Of a DNA stretch of 61,332 nt, positions 23,288 through 53,928 are shown one piece after another. A program made the translations under genes and the position numbers. This stretch comes from Burkholderiales bacterium (GTDB lineage Bacteria > Pseudomonadota > Gammaproteobacteria > Burkholderiales > SG8-39), in assembly GCA_035286595.1 (NCBI GenBank), contig DATEDA010000096.1, forward strand, positions 1 through 61,332, in the 5' to 3' direction. Positions within the stretch are counted from its first letter, which is position 1, and the number at the start of each line of letters is the position of its first letter. Below the pieces are notes generated by a model that saw only the letters and a program-made list of their open reading frames with translations, had not been told where the DNA came from and made no database searches.

Positions 23288-23381
23288 GTCGGATCCGTCG
23301 CCACGCGGTCGTTCCGGTGGGCCCGCTTCTGGCTGCCGTCCCAGCGCACGACGAGGGCTTTCATGGCAACGATGATACGTC

Positions 23382-23397
23382 CGTGCGCTGGCGTACG
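23382..23397. promoter_or_regulatory. CRP-like box 1
   Basis: CGTGCG-CTGG-CGTACG within the longer palindrome GTC...GAC (23379-23400). It covers the -35 position of a TAGACT -10 (23406-23411) facing the Crp gene. Confidence 0.65.
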
Positions 23398-23441
23398 GAC
23401 GGCGTTAGACTGTCTCTGCCGGTATCGAACATCGAGTGGGT

Positions 23442-24170
23442 ATGCGAGCAACGGCTGCGCCGCAAATTCCCGAGACGAACCAGCTCCTGGCAGTCCTGCC
23501 GGCGGGCGAACGCGAACGGCTGTGTCCCCACCTCGAGCCGGTCGCGATGGCGCTCGGCGAGGTTGTCTACGAATCCGGCAGCCGGCAGGACTACGTGTAC
23601 TTCCCGACGACGGCGATCGTGTCCCTGCTCTACGTCATGGCGGATGGCGCGTCCGCCGAGATCGCCGTGGTCGGCAACGAGGGAATGGTGGGAGTTGCCC
23701 TCTTCATGGGAGGTGAGACCACACCGAGCCGCGCCATCGTACAGAGCGCCGGCTCGGCGTTCCGGCTTTCGGGGCAGCTGCTGAAGCGCGAGTTCATTCG
23801 TGCCGGGCCGACGCAGCATCTGTTGCTGCGCTATACCCAGGCGTTACTGACGCAGATGGCGCAGACGGCGGTCTGCAACCGGCATCATTCGGTCGACCAG
23901 CAGCTCTGCCGCTGGCTGCTGCTCAGCCTCGATCGGTTGCCCTCGAACAGGCTCACCATGACGCAGGAGTTGATTGCCAACATGCTCGGGGTGCGCCGCG
24001 AAGGGGTCACGGAGGCCGCCGGGAAGTTGCAGGGCGCAGGCCTCATCCGCTACAGCCGTGGCCGCATCACGGTGCTGGATCGGCCGGGCCTGGAGGCCCG
24101 GGCCTGCGAGTGCTACGAGGTGGTCAAGCGGGAATGCGATCGCCTGCTCCCCACTGCCATGGCGACGTGA
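23442..24170 (+). CDS. Crp/Fnr-family regulator, paralog 1
   Basis: Cyclic-nucleotide-binding-like fold plus HTH: TQELIANMLGVRREGVTEAAGKL. Confidence 0.93.
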   Translation: MRATAAPQIPETNQLLAVLPAGERERLCPHLEPVAMALGEVVYESGSRQDYVYFPTTAIVSLLYVMADGASAEIAVVGNEGMVGVALFMGGETTPSRAIVQSAGSAFRLSGQLLKREFIRAGPTQHLLLRYTQALLTQMAQTAVCNRHHSVDQQLCRWLLLSLDRLPSNRLTMTQELIANMLGVRREGVTEAAGKLQGAGLIRYSRGRITVLDRPGLEARACECYEVVKRECDRLLPTAMAT

Positions 24171-24196
24171 TCTGAAGCGAGCACGTCACTGCCGCT

Positions 24197-24904
24197 CTAG
24201 CCGAGGATGCGGTCGTACACGTTCTGCGCGGATCGGTAACACCCGCAGGCGGCGGCCTCCAGGCCGCGCCGGGCGAGAACCGTGATGTTGCCGCGGCGGT
24301 AGCGAATCAGCTTTCGCCGCTGCAGCCCCCCCGCCGCCTTGGTCACGCCGACCCGGCGGACGCCGAGCATTTGGGCGAGCAGCTCGTGGGTCAGATGGAA
24401 CTCGTCCGCGTGCGCCCGGTCGTGGGTCATCAGCAGCCAGCGGGCGAGCCGTGCCTCCAGTAGGTGGAAGTGCGTACACGCCGCTGTTTGCGCGAGCTGC
24501 GCCATCGAGACGTAGAGGTAGCGGTTCAGCTCGCGCTGCAGGGCAGCGCTATCGGCGAGCTCGCGGAGGAACGGCGCAGCATCCATCCGCATCGCGGCGC
24601 CCGCGCCCTGGACCAATGCGCGCAAGGGTGAGACGTCGACGCCCAGCATCAGCGTGATTCCGAGCATGCCCTCGCTGCCGACGAGCCCCACCTCCAGGCT
24701 CGCGCAGCCGTCGCGCGGCGTCAACAGCGAGATGAAACCGTCGTCGGGGAAGTAGACGTGCCGGATCCGGTCCCCGGGCTCGGAGAGCACATCGGCGAAA
24801 GCGAGCTCGACCCGCTCGCAGCCCGCGAGCAGATGCTCGCGATCCTTGCGGGGCAACGCCGCGATCAGATTGTTCGTGGCGGGGACGCGCCTCGTGGATG
24901 ACAC
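24197..24904 (-). CDS. Crp/Fnr-family regulator, paralog 2
   Basis: [26 protein letters not shown]; AGGAG RBS before the GTG start. Confidence 0.93.
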
Positions 24905-24924
24905 CGGAGTCTCCTAGAGGGTCC

Positions 24925-24959
24925 AAGAAAAGACCCGGTACGGGGGTGCCGTGACCGGG
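24925..24959 (-). terminator. Intrinsic terminator directly upstream of Crp paralog 2
   Basis: CCCGGT-C-ACGG/CACCC/CCGT-ACCGGG stem followed by TCTTTTCTT. Confidence 0.7.
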
Positions 24960-25000
24960 CCAAACACTTTAGGTGTTCATCAGGGAGGAGCTAAACACCC
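24925..25000 (-). ncRNA. Candidate ~76-nt sRNA or attenuator leader with an anti-SD loop
   Basis: Hairpin 1 GGTGTTTAG-CTCCTCC-CT(GAT)GAACACC at 24999-24972; hairpin 2 with a C-rich loop and U-tract; -10-like GATGAT at 25012-25007; CRP-like box centred at -41.5. Confidence 0.55.
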
Positions 25001-25033
25001 GTTAGCATCATCCCCGCTTCCTCCAGGACGCTC

Positions 25034-25049
25034 CGTACGCTAGCGTCCA
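25034..25049. promoter_or_regulatory. CRP-like box 2
   Basis: CGTACG-CTAG-CGTCCA; GATGAT begins 29.5 bp from the dyad centre on the minus strand. Confidence 0.6.
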
Positions 25050-25218
25050 TAGCGCACACGATTCTTTCGCATGGGCCGGACGAGTGTAGCCAAGGAAAGG
25101 CCCGGAACGGGGAGAGCCGATTCCGGGCCGGGGACAACAGGTGCTCAAGGACAACAGATACTCACGAGGGAGGGAATGAGCACCCATTTCAATGATGTCC
25201 GTCTCCGCCAGGGCCGTC

Positions 25219-25234
25219 TGTTCGCTAGCGCACC
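25219..25234. promoter_or_regulatory. CRP-like box 3
   Basis: TGTTCG-CTAG-CGCACC; TACCCT (25256-25261) begins 29.5 bp downstream, facing the GlsB-family gene. Confidence 0.65.
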
Positions 25235-25341
25235 GATCCCGGTCCGACATCGGATTACCCTCCAACCGACGCCGTGAGCGATGCGGCGATGTTGCAGTCG
25301 GTAGCACTACCGGGCTTTTGACCTGGAAAGGAAGAGACGCT

Positions 25342-25587
25342 ATGGAAATTCTCTGGTTCATTCTGATCGGTCTCGCCGCCGGATGGCTGGCGGGGCAATT
25401 CATGCGAGGCGGCGGCTACGGTCCTGTCGGCGACATCTTGCTGGGCGTGGTCGGCGCGGTGGTCGGCGGGTTTCTGTTTCGTCAGCTGGGCCTGTCCGCC
25501 GGAGGCGGGTTGATCGGTGCCTTGATCGTGGCGACCATAGGCGCGGTGGTCGTGCTGTTCCTCGTGCGCGTGCTCAAGCGCGCCTAG
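25342..25587 (+). CDS. GlsB/YeaQ/YmgE family (transglycosylase-associated) stress membrane protein
   Basis: MEILWFILIGLAAGWLAG...GDILLGVVGAVVGG...IVATIGAVVVLF. Confidence 0.92.
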   Translation: MEILWFILIGLAAGWLAGQFMRGGGYGPVGDILLGVVGAVVGGFLFRQLGLSAGGGLIGALIVATIGAVVVLFLVRVLKRA

Positions 25588-25631
25588 CGGTGAGAAGGGA
25601 GGGGTTCCACCCCTTCCCTCGCGCCGATTCA

Positions 25632-25662
25632 CGACGATCTTCCGCGTCGCGGAAGATCGTCG
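25632..25662. terminator. 14-bp perfect inverted repeat between convergent genes
   Basis: CGACGATCTTCCGC-gtc-GCGGAAGATCGTCG. Confidence 0.7.
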
Positions 25663-25666
25663 CTCA

Positions 25667-25801
25667 TCAGGTTTTCCCGCCGGGCACGTCAGCGGGCGTC
25701 TTGAACGGCCCGCCGCGAAATGGCGCGGCCGGAGGGGCCGGCTTCTTCTGTTGCTTCGGTTTCTTGGCTTCGCGATTGCTTCGCTGCTGGCCCTTGGGCA
25801 T
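25667..25801 (-). CDS. Small basic protein (44 aa), absent from the ORF track
   Basis: AGGAG RBS; MPKGQQRSNREAKKPKQQKKPAPPAAPFRGGPFKTPADVPGGKT; stop abuts the hairpin. Confidence 0.7.
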   Translation of the reverse strand: MPKGQQRSNREAKKPKQQKKPAPPAAPFRGGPFKTPADVPGGKT

Positions 25802-25938
25802 GGGAGTTCTCCTGAGAGGATGCGCATCCGGACGTGGCCCGGCGATTATGCGCGTTTGTGACCGGCGTCGCCGTCAACGGGTCTCGTCGCGATGGGGCCG
25901 CAGCCCTGGCGCTCCGTGCGCCGCGATCTTTCGATGTA

Positions 25939-25954
25939 TGTACGCCAACGTACA
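25939..25954. promoter_or_regulatory. CRP-like box 4 (perfect dyad)
   Basis: TGTACG-CCAA-CGTACA; GATACT (25976-25981) begins 29.5 bp downstream. Confidence 0.75.
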
Positions 25955-26076
25955 GAGCGCGCCCGGAGGCGCGCCGATACTGCTCACGGCGATGGTCGAA
26001 TCTCGGGCGCCCGCAGCTGTTTTCGCCGGGCGGCACCGAGAGCGGGTCAGCCCCGGGCCTTCGCGAGGAGAGAGTC

Positions 26077-26628
26077 ATGTGGAGGCGAGCAGGTTCGATG
26101 ACCGTGAGTGCGGCGGTGGCCGCGATGGTGCTTGGCTGTTCCCCGCCGCCGTCGGGGCCGACAGTCGTGATTGAGGACAAGGTCTATACGGTGACGCCCA
26201 CCTCGGTGCTGGCGAAGGCCGGGATCATGACGGGCGAGGTCACGGAGATGAAGGTGACCGAGCGGGTCGAGAAGGACTCCGGCAACGTCGTCTCCATGGC
26301 GAAGCTCACCGGGAAGCTCAAGCTGACCAATAGCTCCAAGGATCAAAGCGTCCGCCTGGTCGGCGGCAAGATCCAGTTCATCGATGCCCAGGGGCAACCG
26401 ATCAAGGTCGAGGAGAAGCGGATCGAACCGACCCTCAAGTTCTCCAGCTACGGCGGAGCCGAGCGGCTGGACCCGGGGCAGGAGGCGACCCAGATGGTGG
26501 ACGTGGACTTCCCCGCCGAGGCCCTGAAGGCGAAGAAGCTGAAGGAGATCCGCCTCGAGCTCGTGTACCTCCCCTCGTCGTACAAGGAAGAGACGGCCAA
26601 CTTCACCGTGTCGATCGGCGGCCAGTAG
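26077..26628 (+). CDS. Lipoprotein of unknown function, beta-rich (Ig-like?)
   Basis: GAGGAG RBS; signal peptide with VLGC lipobox; host-like codon usage. Confidence 0.8.
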   Translation: MWRRAGSMTVSAAVAAMVLGCSPPPSGPTVVIEDKVYTVTPTSVLAKAGIMTGEVTEMKVTERVEKDSGNVVSMAKLTGKLKLTNSSKDQSVRLVGGKIQFIDAQGQPIKVEEKRIEPTLKFSSYGGAERLDPGQEATQMVDVDFPAEALKAKKLKEIRLELVYLPSSYKEETANFTVSIGGQ

Positions 26629-26642
26629 ATCTCGAGTTCGAC

Positions 26643-27185
26643 TCAGTCCCGCGGCGTCGGCGGCGCGCCGCGGCCATCCGGATACCGCACAGCCAGCGCG
26701 CTCGCGCGGGCTTCCGCGTCATCCAGGCCATGGAGGGTGACGGCGCTCGTGCCGCCCTCGACGAGCCGCAGCCGACGCAGATCTTTCACCAACACCCACG
26801 TCTCCCCGCGGCCCGGGGCTTCCATGCTCACTGCCGTGTTCGCTAGGACGGCGGTCGCCTCGATCAGGCTTCGGCGGGCGGCGGTGACATCTCCCACGGC
26901 GTAGCTGTGCCTCGCTCGCTGCAGGGCACGAACACCGAAAGCGGACCGGTGGACAGCATCTTTGCCCAGGCCCGGGCCGCTATCGTCCTGGGGCAGAACC
27001 TTGGCCTGAGGGGGGAGGGCTCGAGCATCGACCGGCACCAGGTAGACCCCGCGCTCGGCAACCGGGGTCGCGAGTGCCGCCGTAGTCGGGCGTTCCACTG
27101 GTGAAGGCGGCGGCTGCAGCGCGCAAGCGGCGACGAGGAAAGACAGGAAACCGGTCGCCGCAAGCTTGAGGGAAGTGAGTCTCAA
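26643..27185 (-). CDS. Probable lipoprotein of unknown function
   Basis: TTG start 6 nt after GGAGGAG; LVAAC lipobox; Pro-rich linker followed by a helical domain. Confidence 0.55.
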   Translation of the reverse strand: MRLTSLKLAATGFLSFLVAACALQPPPSPVERPTTAALATPVAERGVYLVPVDARALPPQAKVLPQDDSGPGLGKDAVHRSAFGVRALQRARHSYAVGDVTAARRSLIEATAVLANTAVSMEAPGRGETWVLVKDLRRLRLVEGGTSAVTLHGLDDAEARASALAVRYPDGRGAPPTPRD

Positions 27186-27230
27186 ATGGATCTCCTCCCC
27201 ATTCATTATCCGCGCCCCATCACGAAGATC

Positions 27231-27246
27231 TGTACGCCAGCGTACG
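27231..27246. promoter_or_regulatory. CRP-like box 5
   Basis: TGTACG-CCAG-CGTACG; GATAAT (27210-27205, minus strand) begins 28.5 bp from the centre. Confidence 0.72.
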
Positions 27247-27375
27247 TACGGACCTGCGACGAGCGCGGCGACATCACGACCGCGCCGGCTTGGAAGCAGC
27301 GTCTTGCGGGTGCTACCGGGGCGCGAAGGAAACCCACTACTCCCCCGGAGAACCTCGGGCGGGAGCTCACTGCAG

Positions 27376-27408
27376 CCCGTTCATGCCGCGGCGAGCGACA
27401 TGAACGGG
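27376..27408 (-). terminator. Hairpin downstream of cspA
   Basis: CCCGTTCATG...CATGAACGGG stem, extendable to 14 bp with one G.U pair on the minus strand; no clear U-tract. Confidence 0.55.
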
Positions 27409-27426
27409 GAATCGACCAGAGCTTTC

Positions 27427-27633
27427 TCAGGCCGCTTTGAGGTTGACGGCGGACGACTTGCCGTCGTTTCCCTGCTCGACGTCGTACGAGAGTTTCTGGC
27501 TCTCGCTGATGCTGCCGAGCCCGGCACGTTCCACGGCCGAGATGTGGACGAACACATCCTTCGAGCCGTCGTCAGGGCGAATGAAGCCGAAGCCTTTGGT
27601 TGCGTTGAAGAACTTGACGGTGCCAGTAGACAT
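27427..27633 (-). CDS. cspA: Cold-shock protein
   Basis: [12 protein letters not shown] (RNP1) and DVFVHISAV (RNP2); 68 aa; GGAGG RBS. Confidence 0.97.
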
Positions 27634-27837
27634 GAGTCCTCCGGATCTGGCGTTGCCTCGCGCGGGAGTGTGCGGGGCATCAAATTGCCGTTGGGAGAAG
27701 ACCCGAAGTGGCGCCCGAAGGTGATACTGCGGACAGACCCGAAGCGAATTCGATGACGCTATATGGGGGCGAAAACGCGCTTGGCAAGCGAGCAGCGACC
27801 GCTTTCTTGCTGCCCCGTAACACGCCAGGTGCCGCCG

Positions 27838-28077
27838 CTACGCCGAGACCCCGGCGTCGTCCTGCGGCAGGTCGGCTTGCACGAGAGCGATTTTCTCCTG
27901 CGCGTCATGGATGATGCGCCGGCTCGCTCGGTCCCAGTGCAGGGAGACCGCCCTATCCGAGGCGGATCGAGCGAGTGCGGCGCTGGGCGATCCCGCCATG
28001 GCGAGCGTCAACGGTGTTCTCATGCTTCTCATGATTGATGCCGCCTGACGGAACGCCCCGAATCGGAGCAATCTCAT
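27838..28077 (-). CDS. Possible small hypothetical protein
   Basis: Open frame filling the gap between Crp paralog 3 and cspA; no motif; start uncertain. Confidence 0.25.
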   Translation of the reverse strand: MRLLRFGAFRQAASIMRSMRTPLTLAMAGSPSAALARSASDRAVSLHWDRASRRIIHDAQEKIALVQADLPQDDAGVSA

Positions 28078-28133
28078 CTTACGCGCTCAATCAGCGGCGT
28101 CCTGGGGTTTATTTTTCGGCGAAGCCGGGACAA

Positions 28134-28856
28134 TCATGCTGCGGCCACGTCGGGGAGCAGCCGGTCGAATTCTCTCTTGACGACCTGGTAGCACTCGCAA
28201 ACGTGGGCCTCCAGCGCCGGCCGGTCGAGCACCGTGATGTTGCCGCGGCGGTAGCGAATCACGCCGGCGGCTTGCAGCTTGCCTGCGGCCTCGGTGACGC
28301 CTTCGCGGCGCACTCCCAGCATGTTGGCGATCAGCTCCTGCGTCATCGTGAGCTCGTTCGAGGGCAGGCGATCGAGGCTCAGCAACAGCCAGCGACAGAG
28401 CTGTTGATCCAGCGAGTGATGCCGGTTGCAGACCGCCGTCTGCGCCATCTGTGTCAGCAGCGCCTGGGTATAGCGCAGCAGCAGATGCTGCATCGCCCCG
28501 GCGCGACGGAATTCCTCCTTCAGCAGGAGCCCCGACAGCCGATAGGCAAAGCCGGCGCTCTGCACGACGGCCCGGCTCGGCGTAGTCTCGCCGCCCATGA
28601 AGAGGGCGACGCCGACCATTCCCTCGGTGCCCACCACGGCGATCTCGGCTGACGCGCCATCCGCCATGACGTAGAGCAGGGACACGATGGTGGAGGTCGC
28701 CGGGAAGTAGACGTGATCCAGCTGGCTGCCCGACTCGTAAAGGACGTCGCCGAGAGGCATCTGGGTCAGTTCCAACTGGGGGTACACGCGTTCGCGCTCG
28801 ATCCCCGGCAAGACCGCAAGAAGGCGGTTTTCTGCGGGGTTATGGACGTTGGGCAT
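28134..28856 (-). CDS. Crp/Fnr-family regulator, paralog 3
   Basis: Very similar to paralog 1; shares VCNRHHS and MTQELIANMLGVRREGVTEAAGKLQ. Confidence 0.93.
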   Translation of the reverse strand: MPNVHNPAENRLLAVLPGIERERVYPQLELTQMPLGDVLYESGSQLDHVYFPATSTIVSLLYVMADGASAEIAVVGTEGMVGVALFMGGETTPSRAVVQSAGFAYRLSGLLLKEEFRRAGAMQHLLLRYTQALLTQMAQTAVCNRHHSLDQQLCRWLLLSLDRLPSNELTMTQELIANMLGVRREGVTEAAGKLQAAGVIRYRRGNITVLDRPALEAHVCECYQVVKREFDRLLPDVAAA

Positions 28857-28926
28857 GACCTAGGGCTCGACGGTCAGAGGCGGATCAGCCATCTCCCACC
28901 AGTATAGGTCGATTCCCCTCGCGCTA

Positions 28927-28942
28927 TGTGCGCTGGCGTACC
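28927..28942. promoter_or_regulatory. CRP-like box 6, central to divergent promoters
   Basis: TGTGCG-CTGG-CGTACC; TATACT on the minus strand (28906-28901, 28.5 bp) and TACACT on the plus strand (28964-28969, 29.5 bp). Confidence 0.78.
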
Positions 28943-29072
28943 GAGGGCCGGCGGCTTCGGAACTACACTCGTACGACGGGACGAGTCGACGACCCGGCCT
29001 GCGCGCAAGCGATCAGGGAGGTGCCGACGCCAGCCCTCCCGCGCGGCGTCAACTCACTCCGGTGCCAAGACA

Positions 29073-53586: not shown

Positions 53587-53928
53587 GTGACGATCGACCT
53601 GGACACCCTTGTCGTGCTCGAGGACCTCACGATCGGAGCCGACGAGGTGTCGCTCCTCGGCGAGCTCTTCCCCGAGAGCTTCTACGTCGTCGGCACCGAG
53701 GGGAACAACCTCACGACGATGAACAACCTGGACATCTTCCACCGCATAGTGGAGATGATCGGCCGGGACACCGACCTCGACGATCGCGAGCTCCGGGAGG
53801 AGGTCGCGGCGATGCTCCAGGACGCGGACGGGCTGTCCCAGGAGGAGTACGACGAGGCGGCCGAGCGCGAGGGCGGCGACCGCGACGAAGATTTCGAGGA
53901 CGAGGGCGAGGACGACCCGGATCGGTGA
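53587..53928 (+). CDS. Highly acidic small protein
   Basis: 113 aa, about one third Asp/Glu, no Lys; AGGA RBS. Confidence 0.75.
   Translation: MTIDLDTLVVLEDLTIGADEVSLLGELFPESFYVVGTEGNNLTTMNNLDIFHRIVEMIGRDTDLDDRELREEVAAMLQDADGLSQEEYDEAAEREGGDRDEDFEDEGEDDPDR

What the first reader, a model, noticed from the sequence alone, without database searches (positions are those of the whole stretch)
24925..25049. Unannotated ~76-nt RNA with an anti-Shine-Dalgarno loop, driven from a CRP-like box at -41.5
Seen on the minus strand: box 2, then GATGAT, then a predicted +1 at 25000. Hairpin 1 starts at +2 and exposes CUCCUCC(C), complementary to GGAGGAG. Hairpin 2 has a CACCC loop and ends in UCUUUUCUU. 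The RBS and start of Crp paralog 2 follow within about 20 nt. Established: alphaproteobacterial cuckoo/CcsR and AbcR sRNAs present CCUCC-type anti-SD loops. Inference: a trans-acting sRNA arm of the Crp regulon, or a terminator-containing leader that limits paralog 2 to read-through. A local perfect target, GGAGGAG, is the RBS at 27198-27192.
Basis: partly seen in the sequence, partly recalled or inferred. Interest (0 to 1): 0.8.

Follow-up and report, generated by a model that had tools for sequence, protein, structure and literature searches.

The report
Crp-driven tandem anti-Shine-Dalgarno small RNAs
The flagged spot is one of two neighbouring genes for a conserved but undescribed ~76-nt regulatory RNA of soil Betaproteobacteria that displays a ribosome-binding-site mimic and appears to be switched on by a Crp-type regulator encoded beside it; this is a new family of a well-known kind of regulator.

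Summary
On the minus strand there are two tandem paralogous sRNA genes: unit 2 (25000-24925, the finding) and unit 1 (25185-25092). Each has a 5' hairpin with a CCUCCC-type loop, a short linker and an intrinsic terminator. A covariance model finds the family in 41 of 151 genomes (15 of 34 genera) of the host family, and sporadically elsewhere in GTDB Burkholderiales, including Sideroxydans. Covariation is strong: 97% of cells paired and 11 pairs with double changes. In 31 of 33 copies a palindrome TGTGCG-N4-CGCACA is centred exactly at -41.5, followed by a GATGAT-like -10. No Rfam family reaches its threshold, and a genuine RF02278 tsRNA lies elsewhere in the genome. The host is a betaproteobacterium, not an alphaproteobacterium. 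The sRNA co-occurs with an uncharacterised Crp subfamily (odds ratio 15.6) and lies near its genes in variable orientation, so it is an independent gene and not a conserved leader. In this genome and one relative, a ~280-nt deletion removed CrpP2's own promoter and left the gene 20 nt behind the terminator, so read-through control is a local by-product. The proposed GGAGGAG target is not conserved. No expression data could be obtained, and the targets remain unknown.

The parts
24925..25000 (-). sRNA unit 2 (76 nt; the finding). Hairpin 1 is 25000-24971 with loop GCUCCUCCCUGA (CUCCUCCC = 24990-24983); linker 24970-24962; terminator hairpin 24961-24932 (CACCC loop); U-tract 24931-24925.
   Evidence: Sequence; fold; covariance model R1 92.3 bits; covariation.
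25092..25185 (-). sRNA unit 1 (94 nt), a tandem sibling. Hairpin 1 is 25185-25139 with CCCUCCCUC (25174-25166) in the loop; terminator 25129-25099; tail to 25092. It carries an 18-19-nt imperfect internal duplication (UGAGUAUCUGUUGUCC / UGAGCACCUGUUGUCC) that is absent from the G005 orthologue.
   Evidence: alignment; 86 bits; alternative stem -33.4 versus -36.7 kcal/mol.
25032..25051 (.). CRP-type box of unit 2 (TATGGACGCTAGCGTACGGA on the minus strand), centred at -41.5 from G25000; PWM score 24.3 bits.
25007..25012 (-). -10 element GATGAT of unit 2 (-12 to -7). A at position 2 and T at position 6 are kept in most of the 33 family promoters.
25217..25236 (.). CRP-type box of unit 1 (TCGGTGCGCTAGCGAACAGA on the minus strand), centred at -41.5 from G25185; 26.9 bits. 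The -10 is CATCAT at 25197-25192.
24197..24904 (-). Crp paralog 2 (235 aa; recognition helix RRVGVTKAA). Its RBS AGGAG and GTG start lie 20 nt after the unit 2 terminator. Its own box and promoter, present in G005, G001 and G008, are deleted here and in G004.
23436..24170 (+). Crp paralog 1 (244 aa; RREGVTEAA), preceded by a box at 23380-23399 (23.7 bits). The predicted +1 lies about 5 nt before the GTG.
28134..28856 (-). Crp paralog 3 (240 aa), preceded by a box at 28925-28944 (24.5 bits) and by TATACT at 28906-28901, correctly spaced for a +1 at about 28893.
25937..25956 (.). Box (28.1 bits) in the divergent spacer between the 44-aa Lys-rich ORF (25801-25667, minus) and the lipoprotein-like gene (26077/26098-26628, plus).
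27192..27248 (-). Promoter and 5' end of hyp187: box at 27229-27248 (26.9 bits), GGATAAT as -10, predicted +1 at about 27197-27200. The mRNA would begin GGGGAGGAGAUCCAU-UUG. GGGAGGAG (27199-27192) forms 9 contiguous pairs (8 Watson-Crick plus one G-U) with the unit 2 loop (-18.4 kcal/mol).
   Evidence: Not conserved in the only orthologue.

Best explanation
The region holds two tandem, independently transcribed sibling sRNA genes of a conserved betaproteobacterial family that is not described in Rfam. Each is transcribed from a class II promoter. A dimer of one of the neighbouring Crp/Fnr-family paralogs binds TGTGCG-N4-CGCACA centred at -41.5 and recruits RNA polymerase to a GATGAT-type -10 that has no -35. 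Transcription starts at the G of GGGUG and stops at the intrinsic terminator, giving RNAs of about 76 and 94 nt. The 5' hairpin presents CCUCCC(U) in its loop. The RNA is proposed to pair with G-rich Shine-Dalgarno regions of target mRNAs, probably with Hfq bound to the U-tail, and so to block translation initiation. The sRNAs would then be the post-transcriptional, trans-acting output of a small self-contained Crp island. Shown here: conserved structure with covariation, an invariant loop motif, conserved promoter geometry, a terminator, and linkage and co-occurrence with the Crp subfamily. Inferred: that the RNA is made, that the box activates and does not repress, which paralog binds and what signal it senses, Hfq dependence, and the targets. 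In this genome and in G004, a deletion placed CrpP2 directly behind the unit 2 terminator, so CrpP2 is probably expressed only by read-through.
For: Structure: RNAalifold gives two helices. On 33 sequences 97% of cells are paired versus 32-56% for slid partners, with 11 pairs changed on both sides and 0 of 500 shuffles reaching the observed values. Indels of 1, 2 and 17-20 nt exclude a coding reading. Loop: CCUCCC or CCUCCUC is present in nearly all copies. Promoter: the box is centred at -41.5 in 31 of 33 copies, and G2, G6, A14 and C15 of the box are invariant or nearly so. The box is not part of the RNA model, yet it also validates distant hits in other families, including Sideroxydans. Distribution: 41 of 151 genomes and 15 of 34 genera, 1-4 copies per genome. 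Independence from the downstream gene: the gap to CrpP2 ranges from 20 nt to about 1.5 kb within the genus, and the orientation relative to Crp genes varies across genera. Regulon: the only six PWM hits of at least 16 bits in the 4.1-Mb genome all lie at 23380-28945. The sRNA co-occurs with the Crp subfamily (37/4/41/69, odds ratio 15.6, p = 3e-9). Anti-SD behaviour: the unit 2 loop gives 335 predicted duplexes at or below -18 kcal/mol with translation-initiation regions, versus 64-82 for shuffled loops. Hfq is encoded in the genome.
Against: No conserved target was identified: the top predicted targets show no functional theme, and my gene calls are crude (7001 ORFs). The one local candidate, hyp187, is not conserved. 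An anti-SD loop matches many RBSs by construction, so complementarity alone is weak evidence. A box at -41.5 fits activation but does not prove it. CrpP2 sits 20 nt downstream in this genome, so some cis role here cannot be excluded.
Confidence: 0.7

Rival explanations
1. The element is primarily a cis-acting leader or attenuator of Crp paralog 2. Its terminator limits CrpP2 to read-through, and the released short RNA has no function of its own.
For: In the window and in G004 the terminator ends 20 nt before the CrpP2 start, and CrpP2 has no promoter of its own. In the predicted read-through transcript the U-tract plus GGA pairs with UCUAGGAGA and buries the CrpP2 SD (unpaired probability 0.08).
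Against: In G005, G001 and G008 CrpP2 has its own box and promoter 280-340 nt downstream of the sRNA. In G002 and G007 the gap is about 1.4-1.5 kb. In other genera the sRNA is convergent with, divergent from, or downstream of Crp genes, or no Crp gene lies within 1.5 kb. Unit 1 has no downstream gene other than unit 2. The loop motif and hairpin 1 are conserved regardless of what lies downstream.
Confidence: 0.1
2. The RNA is a general anti-SD competitor paired with an SD-independent regulon. The Crp paralogs switch on leaderless or SD-poor mRNAs that escape an abundant anti-SD RNA, while translation of SD-led mRNAs is damped.
For: Several box-driven genes have their start codon at the predicted +1 with a well-placed -10, including Crp paralogs in L039 and L030, the hyp187 orthologue in G002, and CrpP1 here. 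ATG starts at -1 to +3 number 6 versus 2.15 +/- 1.84 per 5-nt bin, and 0-19-nt leaders are about twice the expected number.
Against: The enrichment is only about 2 standard deviations, rests on heuristic ORF calls, and includes wrong-direction noise. Other box-driven genes have ordinary SDs: the Lys-rich ORF has AGGAGA, CrpP2 has AGGAG, and hyp187 here has GGAGGAG. Global competition would need very high sRNA levels. The genome already carries another anti-SD sRNA, the tsRNA.
Confidence: 0.08
3. The RNA is real but works by a different mechanism, such as sequestering a protein, sponging another RNA, or using the C-rich terminator loop or the linker as its seed in place of the hairpin 1 loop.
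For: The terminator loop is also C-rich and conserved (CACCC, CUCCCC, CAACCCC), and the linker CCUGNAG is conserved. No conserved mRNA target was found.
Against: The most strongly conserved unpaired element is CCUCCC in hairpin 1. That type of seed has been tested functionally in Burkholderia ncS27, Bordetella S17S and Neisseria NmsRs (PMC5688073, PMC11722255, PMC5362039). The RNA has no GGA motifs of the kind bound by CsrA/RsmA.
Confidence: 0.07
4. There is no functional RNA. The region is only a Crp operator followed by a chance hairpin and a stray terminator.
For: Unit 2 taken alone folds only modestly better than shuffles (z = -2.45). No expression data are available.
Against: Compensatory changes occur in 7 of 9 pairs of hairpin 1. 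The element is conserved across 15 genera and several families, and the box-to-5'-end distance is fixed in 31 of 33 copies.
Confidence: 0.03

Closest known systems
Betaproteobacteria toxic sRNA / 'double-hairpin RNAs' (Rfam RF02278; B. cenocepacia ncS03, ncS05, ncS27, ncS62 = bdhR; Bordetella S17S)
   Same: Betaproteobacterial RNAs of about 60-90 nt with two hairpins, the second a terminator, and CU-rich unpaired anti-RBS sequences. Several copies per genome. Repression of many transporter and metabolic mRNAs has been reported (PMC5688073, PMC11722255).
   Different: cmscan scores are 13.9 bits here and at most 25 bits in relatives, against a cut-off of 50. A genuine RF02278 gene (67.3 bits) sits elsewhere in the same genome. 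The tsRNA has a single-stranded 5' UGUCUCCUCC seed in addition to its loop, whereas this family starts directly with the GGGUG stem. The promoters differ: S17 uses a sigma-A promoter and is then processed. No Crp box is reported for that family.
Neisseria NmsRA/NmsRB (also called RcoF1/2) sibling sRNAs
   Same: Betaproteobacterial, encoded in tandem in one intergenic region, with anti-SD motifs in unpaired regions that repress translation of metabolic genes (PMC5362039).
   Different: There is no sequence or model similarity. NmsRs have sigma-70-type -35/-10 promoters and are under RelA (stringent) control, not a Crp-type class II box, and each RNA carries two anti-SD motifs.
FnrS (RF01796, enterobacteria), CyaR and Neisseria AniS: sRNAs activated by FNR or CRP
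   Same: The logic is the same: a Crp/Fnr-family factor directly activates an Hfq-type sRNA that extends its regulon to negative post-transcriptional control. This comparison rests on my own knowledge of these systems; I consulted no paper on them here.
   Different: The RNA families are unrelated, with no Rfam hit at E <= 10 on the spacer. The box is different (TGTGCG-N4-CGCACA versus TTGAT-N4-ATCAA or TGTGA-N6-TCACA). The regulator is an uncharacterised Crp subfamily with an unknown signal, and here regulators and sRNAs sit together in one island.
   Same: CUCCUCCC-type anti-SD loops. ar14 is the best Rfam hit by bit score (18.5 bits here, up to 34.2 in relatives). Tandem copies are common in these families.
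   Different: All scores are below the ar14 cut-off of 58.8. ar14 has three hairpins, whereas this family usually has two, with rare variants carrying two anti-SD hairpins plus the terminator (L174 and L176). The host is a betaproteobacterium. No cuckoo or AbcR hit was found at all.
anti-hemB (RF02837; Burkholderia ncS04)
   Same: The architecture is very similar: hairpin 1 with the loop CUCCUCCCUG, a linker, then a terminator. It gives the lowest E-value of the permissive Rfam scan (0.15).
   Different: It scores 17.4 bits here and at most 24.1 in relatives, against a cut-off of 49.5. The family is named for lying opposite hemB; here the neighbours are Crp genes and glsB.

Membership tests
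RF02278 Betaproteobacteria toxic sRNA (tsRNA/bdhR/S17S) | Infernal score at or above the Rfam gathering threshold (50 bits) | tested here: not met
   13.9 bits for unit 2; the best relative scores 25.0 bits (L085).
RF02278 Betaproteobacteria toxic sRNA (tsRNA/bdhR/S17S) | It is the genome's orthologue of the highly conserved 5' UGUCUCCUCC... region | tested here: not met
   A separate genuine copy lies at G000:C200:24980-25042 (67.3 bits) and begins UGUCUCCUCCACCCUCCUCC. The window RNAs begin GGGUG and are paired from the first base.
RF02837 anti-hemB | Infernal score at or above the gathering threshold (49.5 bits) | tested here: not met
   17.4 bits; 24.1 bits for L085.
RF02344 ar14 (alphaproteobacterial) | Infernal score at or above 58.8 bits and a three-hairpin architecture | tested here: not met
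   18.5 bits here and at most 34.2 bits in relatives. The consensus structure has two hairpins.
cuckoo/CcsR and AbcR (alphaproteobacterial) | Any Rfam model match | tested here: not met
   No hit at gathering thresholds on the whole window and none at E <= 10 on 24850-25400. The host is a betaproteobacterium.
Class II CRP/FNR-dependent promoter | A palindromic site for a Crp/Fnr dimer centred near -41.5, a -10 element, and no good -35 | tested here: met
   The box is at -41.5 in 31 of 33 copies. A GATGAT-like hexamer lies at -12 to -7. The sigma-70 consensus scan finds no -35/-10 pair in 24000-26000. The +1 is inferred from the model's 5' end and has not been mapped.
Class II CRP/FNR-dependent promoter | Binding of, and activation by, a Crp/Fnr-family protein | not testable with these tools
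   Only indirect evidence is available: linkage, co-occurrence, and boxes upstream of the Crp genes themselves.
Hfq-dependent trans-acting sRNA | An independent transcript ending at an intrinsic terminator with a U-tail, and an unpaired conserved seed | tested here: inconclusive
   The terminator, U-tail and conserved unpaired CCUCCC are present, and Hfq is encoded. No transcript data could be obtained, and no conserved target was found.

The most novel reading that the evidence does not exclude
The Crp-paralog islands run a two-part translational programme. On an unknown signal, the paralogs activate anti-SD sRNAs that damp translation of SD-led mRNAs. At the same time they activate a set of leaderless or very short-leader mRNAs, including their own, which do not depend on SD pairing and so escape. 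The sRNAs would be the island's main trans-acting output. In this genome no other site outside the 5.6-kb island carries the box.
Probability: 0.12. Interest if true: 0.8.

Novelty: new member of a known kind. Interest (0 to 1): 0.55.

Why it matters
It adds a well-supported sRNA family, absent from Rfam, to a poorly studied group of mostly uncultured soil and freshwater Burkholderiales. The family has a covariation-backed structure and a defined seed, and it comes with its probable transcription factor and operator already identified. That pairing gives an uncharacterised, multi-paralog Crp/Fnr subfamily a predicted DNA site (TGTGCG-N4-CGCACA), a defined regulon (compact islands of 2-6 or more box promoters) and a post-transcriptional arm. 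All of these can be tested with simple reporters in E. coli. The locus also shows how a small deletion can turn an independent sRNA gene into the de facto leader of a regulator gene. The kind of regulator, a TF-activated anti-SD sRNA, is well known, so the advance is incremental and not conceptual.

Tried and rejected
(1) Rfam at gathering thresholds on the whole window gave no hits. Permissive scans gave only sub-threshold matches.
(2) BLAST of the locus against the window's own genome found no further copies, and the covariance model likewise found only the two tandem units.
Re-scoring with the model rescued only the Burkholderiales, Sideroxydans and Betaproteobacteria records. Hits in Pseudoxanthomonas, Albimonas and Rhodospirillaceae lack the box and follow ORF ends, so I rejected them as unrelated terminators.
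(4) Counting plain matches to the box consensus in the genome was uninformative at 70% GC, with observed counts below expectation. I replaced it with a PWM scan.
(5) hyp187 as the conserved target was rejected: it has one orthologue, and that orthologue has no SD.
(6) Genome-wide duplex prediction showed generic anti-SD behaviour for unit 2 but gave no coherent target set, and it was uninformative for the long unit 1 loop.
(8) NCBIfam gave no name for the Crp paralogs, the Lys-rich ORF or the two lipoprotein-like genes.

Full report
**1. What is in the sequence**

- A palindrome, TGGACGCTAGCGTACG, is centred between 25042 and 25041.
- GATGAT lies at 25012-25007.
- A G at 25000 opens a 9-bp stem (GGGUGUUUA/UGAACACC) whose 12-nt loop holds CUCCUCCC (24990-24983).
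- A 9-nt linker follows, then a 12-bp interrupted GC-rich hairpin with a CACCC loop, then UUUUCUU ending at 24925.
- The AGGAG and GTG (24904) of a Crp-family gene come 20 nt later.

ViennaRNA returns this two-hairpin fold (-31.5 kcal/mol, z = -2.45).

It has the same plan and folds better (z = -4.19). The two units align over their whole length, promoters included: CGCTAGCG 41.5 bp upstream of GGGUG, an AT(G/C)AT -10, the GGGUG stem, CCUCCCU in the loop, GGCCCGG...CCGGG, and a U-tract. Unit 1 carries an 18-19-nt imperfect internal duplication that its G005 orthologue lacks. Either copy of the duplicated segment can close hairpin 1.

**2. It is a conserved RNA family**

BLAST found the locus in six of eight genomes of the same genus. 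I built a covariance model from nine genus-level copies. It finds the RNA in 41 of 151 genomes and 15 of 34 genera of the host family, with 1-4 copies per genome, and in eight further families of the order.

On 33 aligned copies:
- 97% of cells form standard pairs, against 32-56% when partners are slid by 1-3 columns.
- 11 of 20 pairs show changes on both sides, including 7 of the 9 pairs of hairpin 1.
- None of 500 shuffles reaches the observed values.
- CCUCCC, or a CCUCCUC variant, sits in the hairpin 1 loop of almost every copy.
- Indels of 1, 2 and 17-20 nt rule out a coding reading.

A few members carry two anti-SD hairpins before the terminator (L174 and L176).

**3. The promoter**

The 75 nt upstream of all 33 copies share TGTGCG-N4-CGCACA. 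This is a CRP-type palindrome (compare E. coli TGTGA-N6-TCACA). It is centred exactly 41.5 bp from the model's 5' end in 31 of 33 cases, and it is followed by a GATGAT-like hexamer at -12 to -7. No sigma-70-type -35/-10 pair is found in the region.

The box is not part of the RNA model, so it serves as an independent check. It is present at -40.5 to -42.5 upstream of distant hits, including a Sideroxydans MAG. It is absent from hits in Pseudoxanthomonas, Albimonas and a Rhodospirillaceae MAG, which I therefore discard. This is the geometry of a class II Crp/Fnr-activated promoter, and it also fixes the probable +1.

**4. Who the host is, and which known families this is not**

The best-scoring named records are Burkholderiales and Betaproteobacteria MAGs and Sideroxydans. 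The genome also has a genuine RF02278 'toxic sRNA' on another contig (67.3 bits).

| Rfam family | Best score (window / relatives) | Gathering threshold |
|---|---|---|
| ar14 (RF02344) | 18.5 / 34.2 bits | 58.8 |
| anti-hemB (RF02837) | 17.4 / 24.1 bits | 49.5 |
| tsRNA (RF02278) | 13.9 / 25.0 bits | 50 |

No family reaches its threshold on the window.

The published betaproteobacterial analogues are the Burkholderia double-hairpin RNAs (PMC5688073), Bordetella S17S (PMC11722255) and the tandem Neisseria NmsRs (PMC5362039). All use CU-rich unpaired sequences against RBSs. All have different sequences and different promoters: sigma-70-type promoters with processing, or RelA control. Three full-text searches found no paper describing a Crp-box-driven sRNA of this type.

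**5. Independent gene or leader?**

Within the genus the sRNA is always syntenic with the CrpP2 orthologue, but the gap varies:
- 20 nt in the window and G004.
- About 280-340 nt in G005, G001 and G008.
- About 1.4-1.5 kb in G002 and G007.

In G005, G001 and G008 the gap contains CrpP2's own box about 90 nt upstream of its start codon. The window and G004 lack this ~280-nt stretch, so the terminator now abuts the conserved RBS.

In other genera a Crp paralog of the same subfamily lies within 1.5 kb in at least 14 of 23 loci. It may be convergent, divergent, upstream or downstream. The family is therefore an independent gene linked to its probable regulator.

The arrangement seen in this window, where CrpP2 is limited to read-through, is a recent by-product of the deletion. 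In the predicted read-through RNA, the U-tract plus GGA pairs with UCUAGGAGA and buries the CrpP2 SD. That is a prediction only.

**6. The regulon**

I built a symmetrised 20-bp PWM from the sRNA boxes. It finds six sites of at least 16 bits in the 4.11-Mb genome (scores 23.7-28.1), and all six lie between 23380 and 28945 of this window. The next best site scores 15.1 bits, and a reversed-genome control gives one site of at least 16 bits.

The six sites precede:
- CrpP1
- sRNA unit 2, and with it CrpP2
- sRNA unit 1
- the divergent pair formed by a 44-aa Lys-rich ORF and a lipoprotein-like gene
- the lipoprotein-like hyp187
- Crp3

.

Relatives have 2-6 strong boxes per 3-kb locus. Better-assembled genomes show a clear excess of box matches over control, clustered in ~40-kb islands that also hold the sRNAs and the Crp genes.

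Across 151 genomes the sRNA and the Crp subfamily co-occur: 37 genomes have both, 4 have only the sRNA, 41 have only the Crp subfamily, and 69 have neither (odds ratio 15.6, p = 3e-9).

The paralogs match no curated NCBIfam equivalog. Only CrpP1 passes the Pfam cNMP-binding model. The sensed signal is unknown.

**7. Mechanism and targets**

The unit 2 loop forms 4-5 times more strong predicted duplexes with translation-initiation regions than shuffled versions of itself: 335 at or below -18 kcal/mol, against 64-82. That is what an anti-SD seed should do, and it is all the test shows.

About 25 plausible genes carry the perfect 8-mer GGGAGGAG at RBS distance. They include three sequences that by eye look like Bug/TctC-type binding proteins and one that looks like a TonB-dependent receptor; none was run through a family search.

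The hyp187 mRNA would start with GGGGAGGAG and forms 9 contiguous pairs (8 Watson-Crick plus one G-U) with unit 2, at -18.4 kcal/mol. But hyp187 has a single orthologue, and that orthologue keeps the box and -10 while having a leaderless-type ATG and no SD. It cannot be the conserved target. Hfq is encoded in the genome.

I therefore commit to translational repression by pairing of the loop with SD regions. The targets are not identified.

**8. A less ordinary possibility**

Several box-driven genes have their start codon at the predicted +1. ATG starts at -1 to +3 number 6, against 2.15 +/- 1.84 per bin. My test gives only weak support, about 2 standard deviations with heuristic ORF calls, and several island genes have normal SDs.

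**9. Limits**

The +1, activation by a Crp paralog, Hfq dependence and the targets are all inferences. The genome is a 257-contig assembly, so boxes could be missing from it.

**Verdict**

This is a new family of a known kind of regulator, of moderate interest.

Noticed in passing
window 24905-24924, compared with L010:1840-2122, L013 and L012: A ~280-nt deletion shared by this genome and G004 removed CrpP2's own box and promoter and joined the sRNA terminator to the conserved CrpP2 RBS. In the predicted read-through RNA the U-tract pairs with the CrpP2 SD.
   Followed up: yes
L011 (G004:C406) about 1740-1960: In G004 a second deletion removed glsB and the 5' part of sRNA unit 1. The 44-aa Lys-rich ORF now ends right at the remaining half of unit 1's terminator. 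That ORF keeps its own box (GTGCGCCAGCGCAC) upstream.
   Followed up: partly
G000 contig C200:24980-25042 (outside the window): A genuine RF02278 'toxic' or double-hairpin sRNA (67.3 bits), starting UGUCUCCUCCACCCUCCUCC. The genome therefore has a second, unrelated anti-SD sRNA.
   Followed up: partly
window 25139-25176: Unit 1 contains an imperfect 18-19-nt internal duplication (UGAGUAUCUGUUGUCC followed by UGAGCACCUGUUGUCC) that enlarges the hairpin 1 loop to 29 nt. The G005 orthologue lacks it. Either copy can close the stem.
   Followed up: partly
window 25237-25262 (minus-strand ATCCGATGTCGGACC), just upstream of the unit 1 box: A near-palindrome (ATCCGA-TG-TCGGAC) is conserved in the genus, with changes that keep the symmetry (GTCCGATGTCGGAC in G007; CCAATGTCGGATTGG in G002). 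It could be a second operator or part of the divergent glsB promoter or leader.
   Followed up: no
window 26077-26628 (+) and 26643-27185 (-): Both box-flanked hypothetical genes look like lipoproteins: MTVSAAVAAMVLGC and MRLTSLKLAATGFLSFLVAAC each have a lipobox. Neither matches any Pfam or NCBIfam model. hyp187 most likely starts at TTG 27185, not at ATG 27206, which lies upstream of the predicted +1.
   Followed up: partly
L039:758, L030:1665, L031:367, L041:2111, L015:623; window 23431-23436: Several box-driven genes, Crp paralogs among them, have their start codon at or within a few nt of the predicted +1, which suggests leaderless mRNAs.
   Followed up: partly
L174:1501-1660 and L176:1420-1582: In two other families of the order the transcript carries two successive anti-SD hairpins before the terminator. 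This three-hairpin variant is reminiscent of ar14 and the NmsRs.
   Followed up: no
window 53795-53802 (+): A second GGGAGGAG lies on the plus strand of the window. I did not check whether it sits at an RBS.
   Followed up: no
G012:C2:63-107 kb; G173:C2:453-494 kb: Better-assembled relatives have much larger box islands, with 10-14 close matches in about 40 kb plus secondary clusters. The six-box island here looks like a reduced version.
   Followed up: partly
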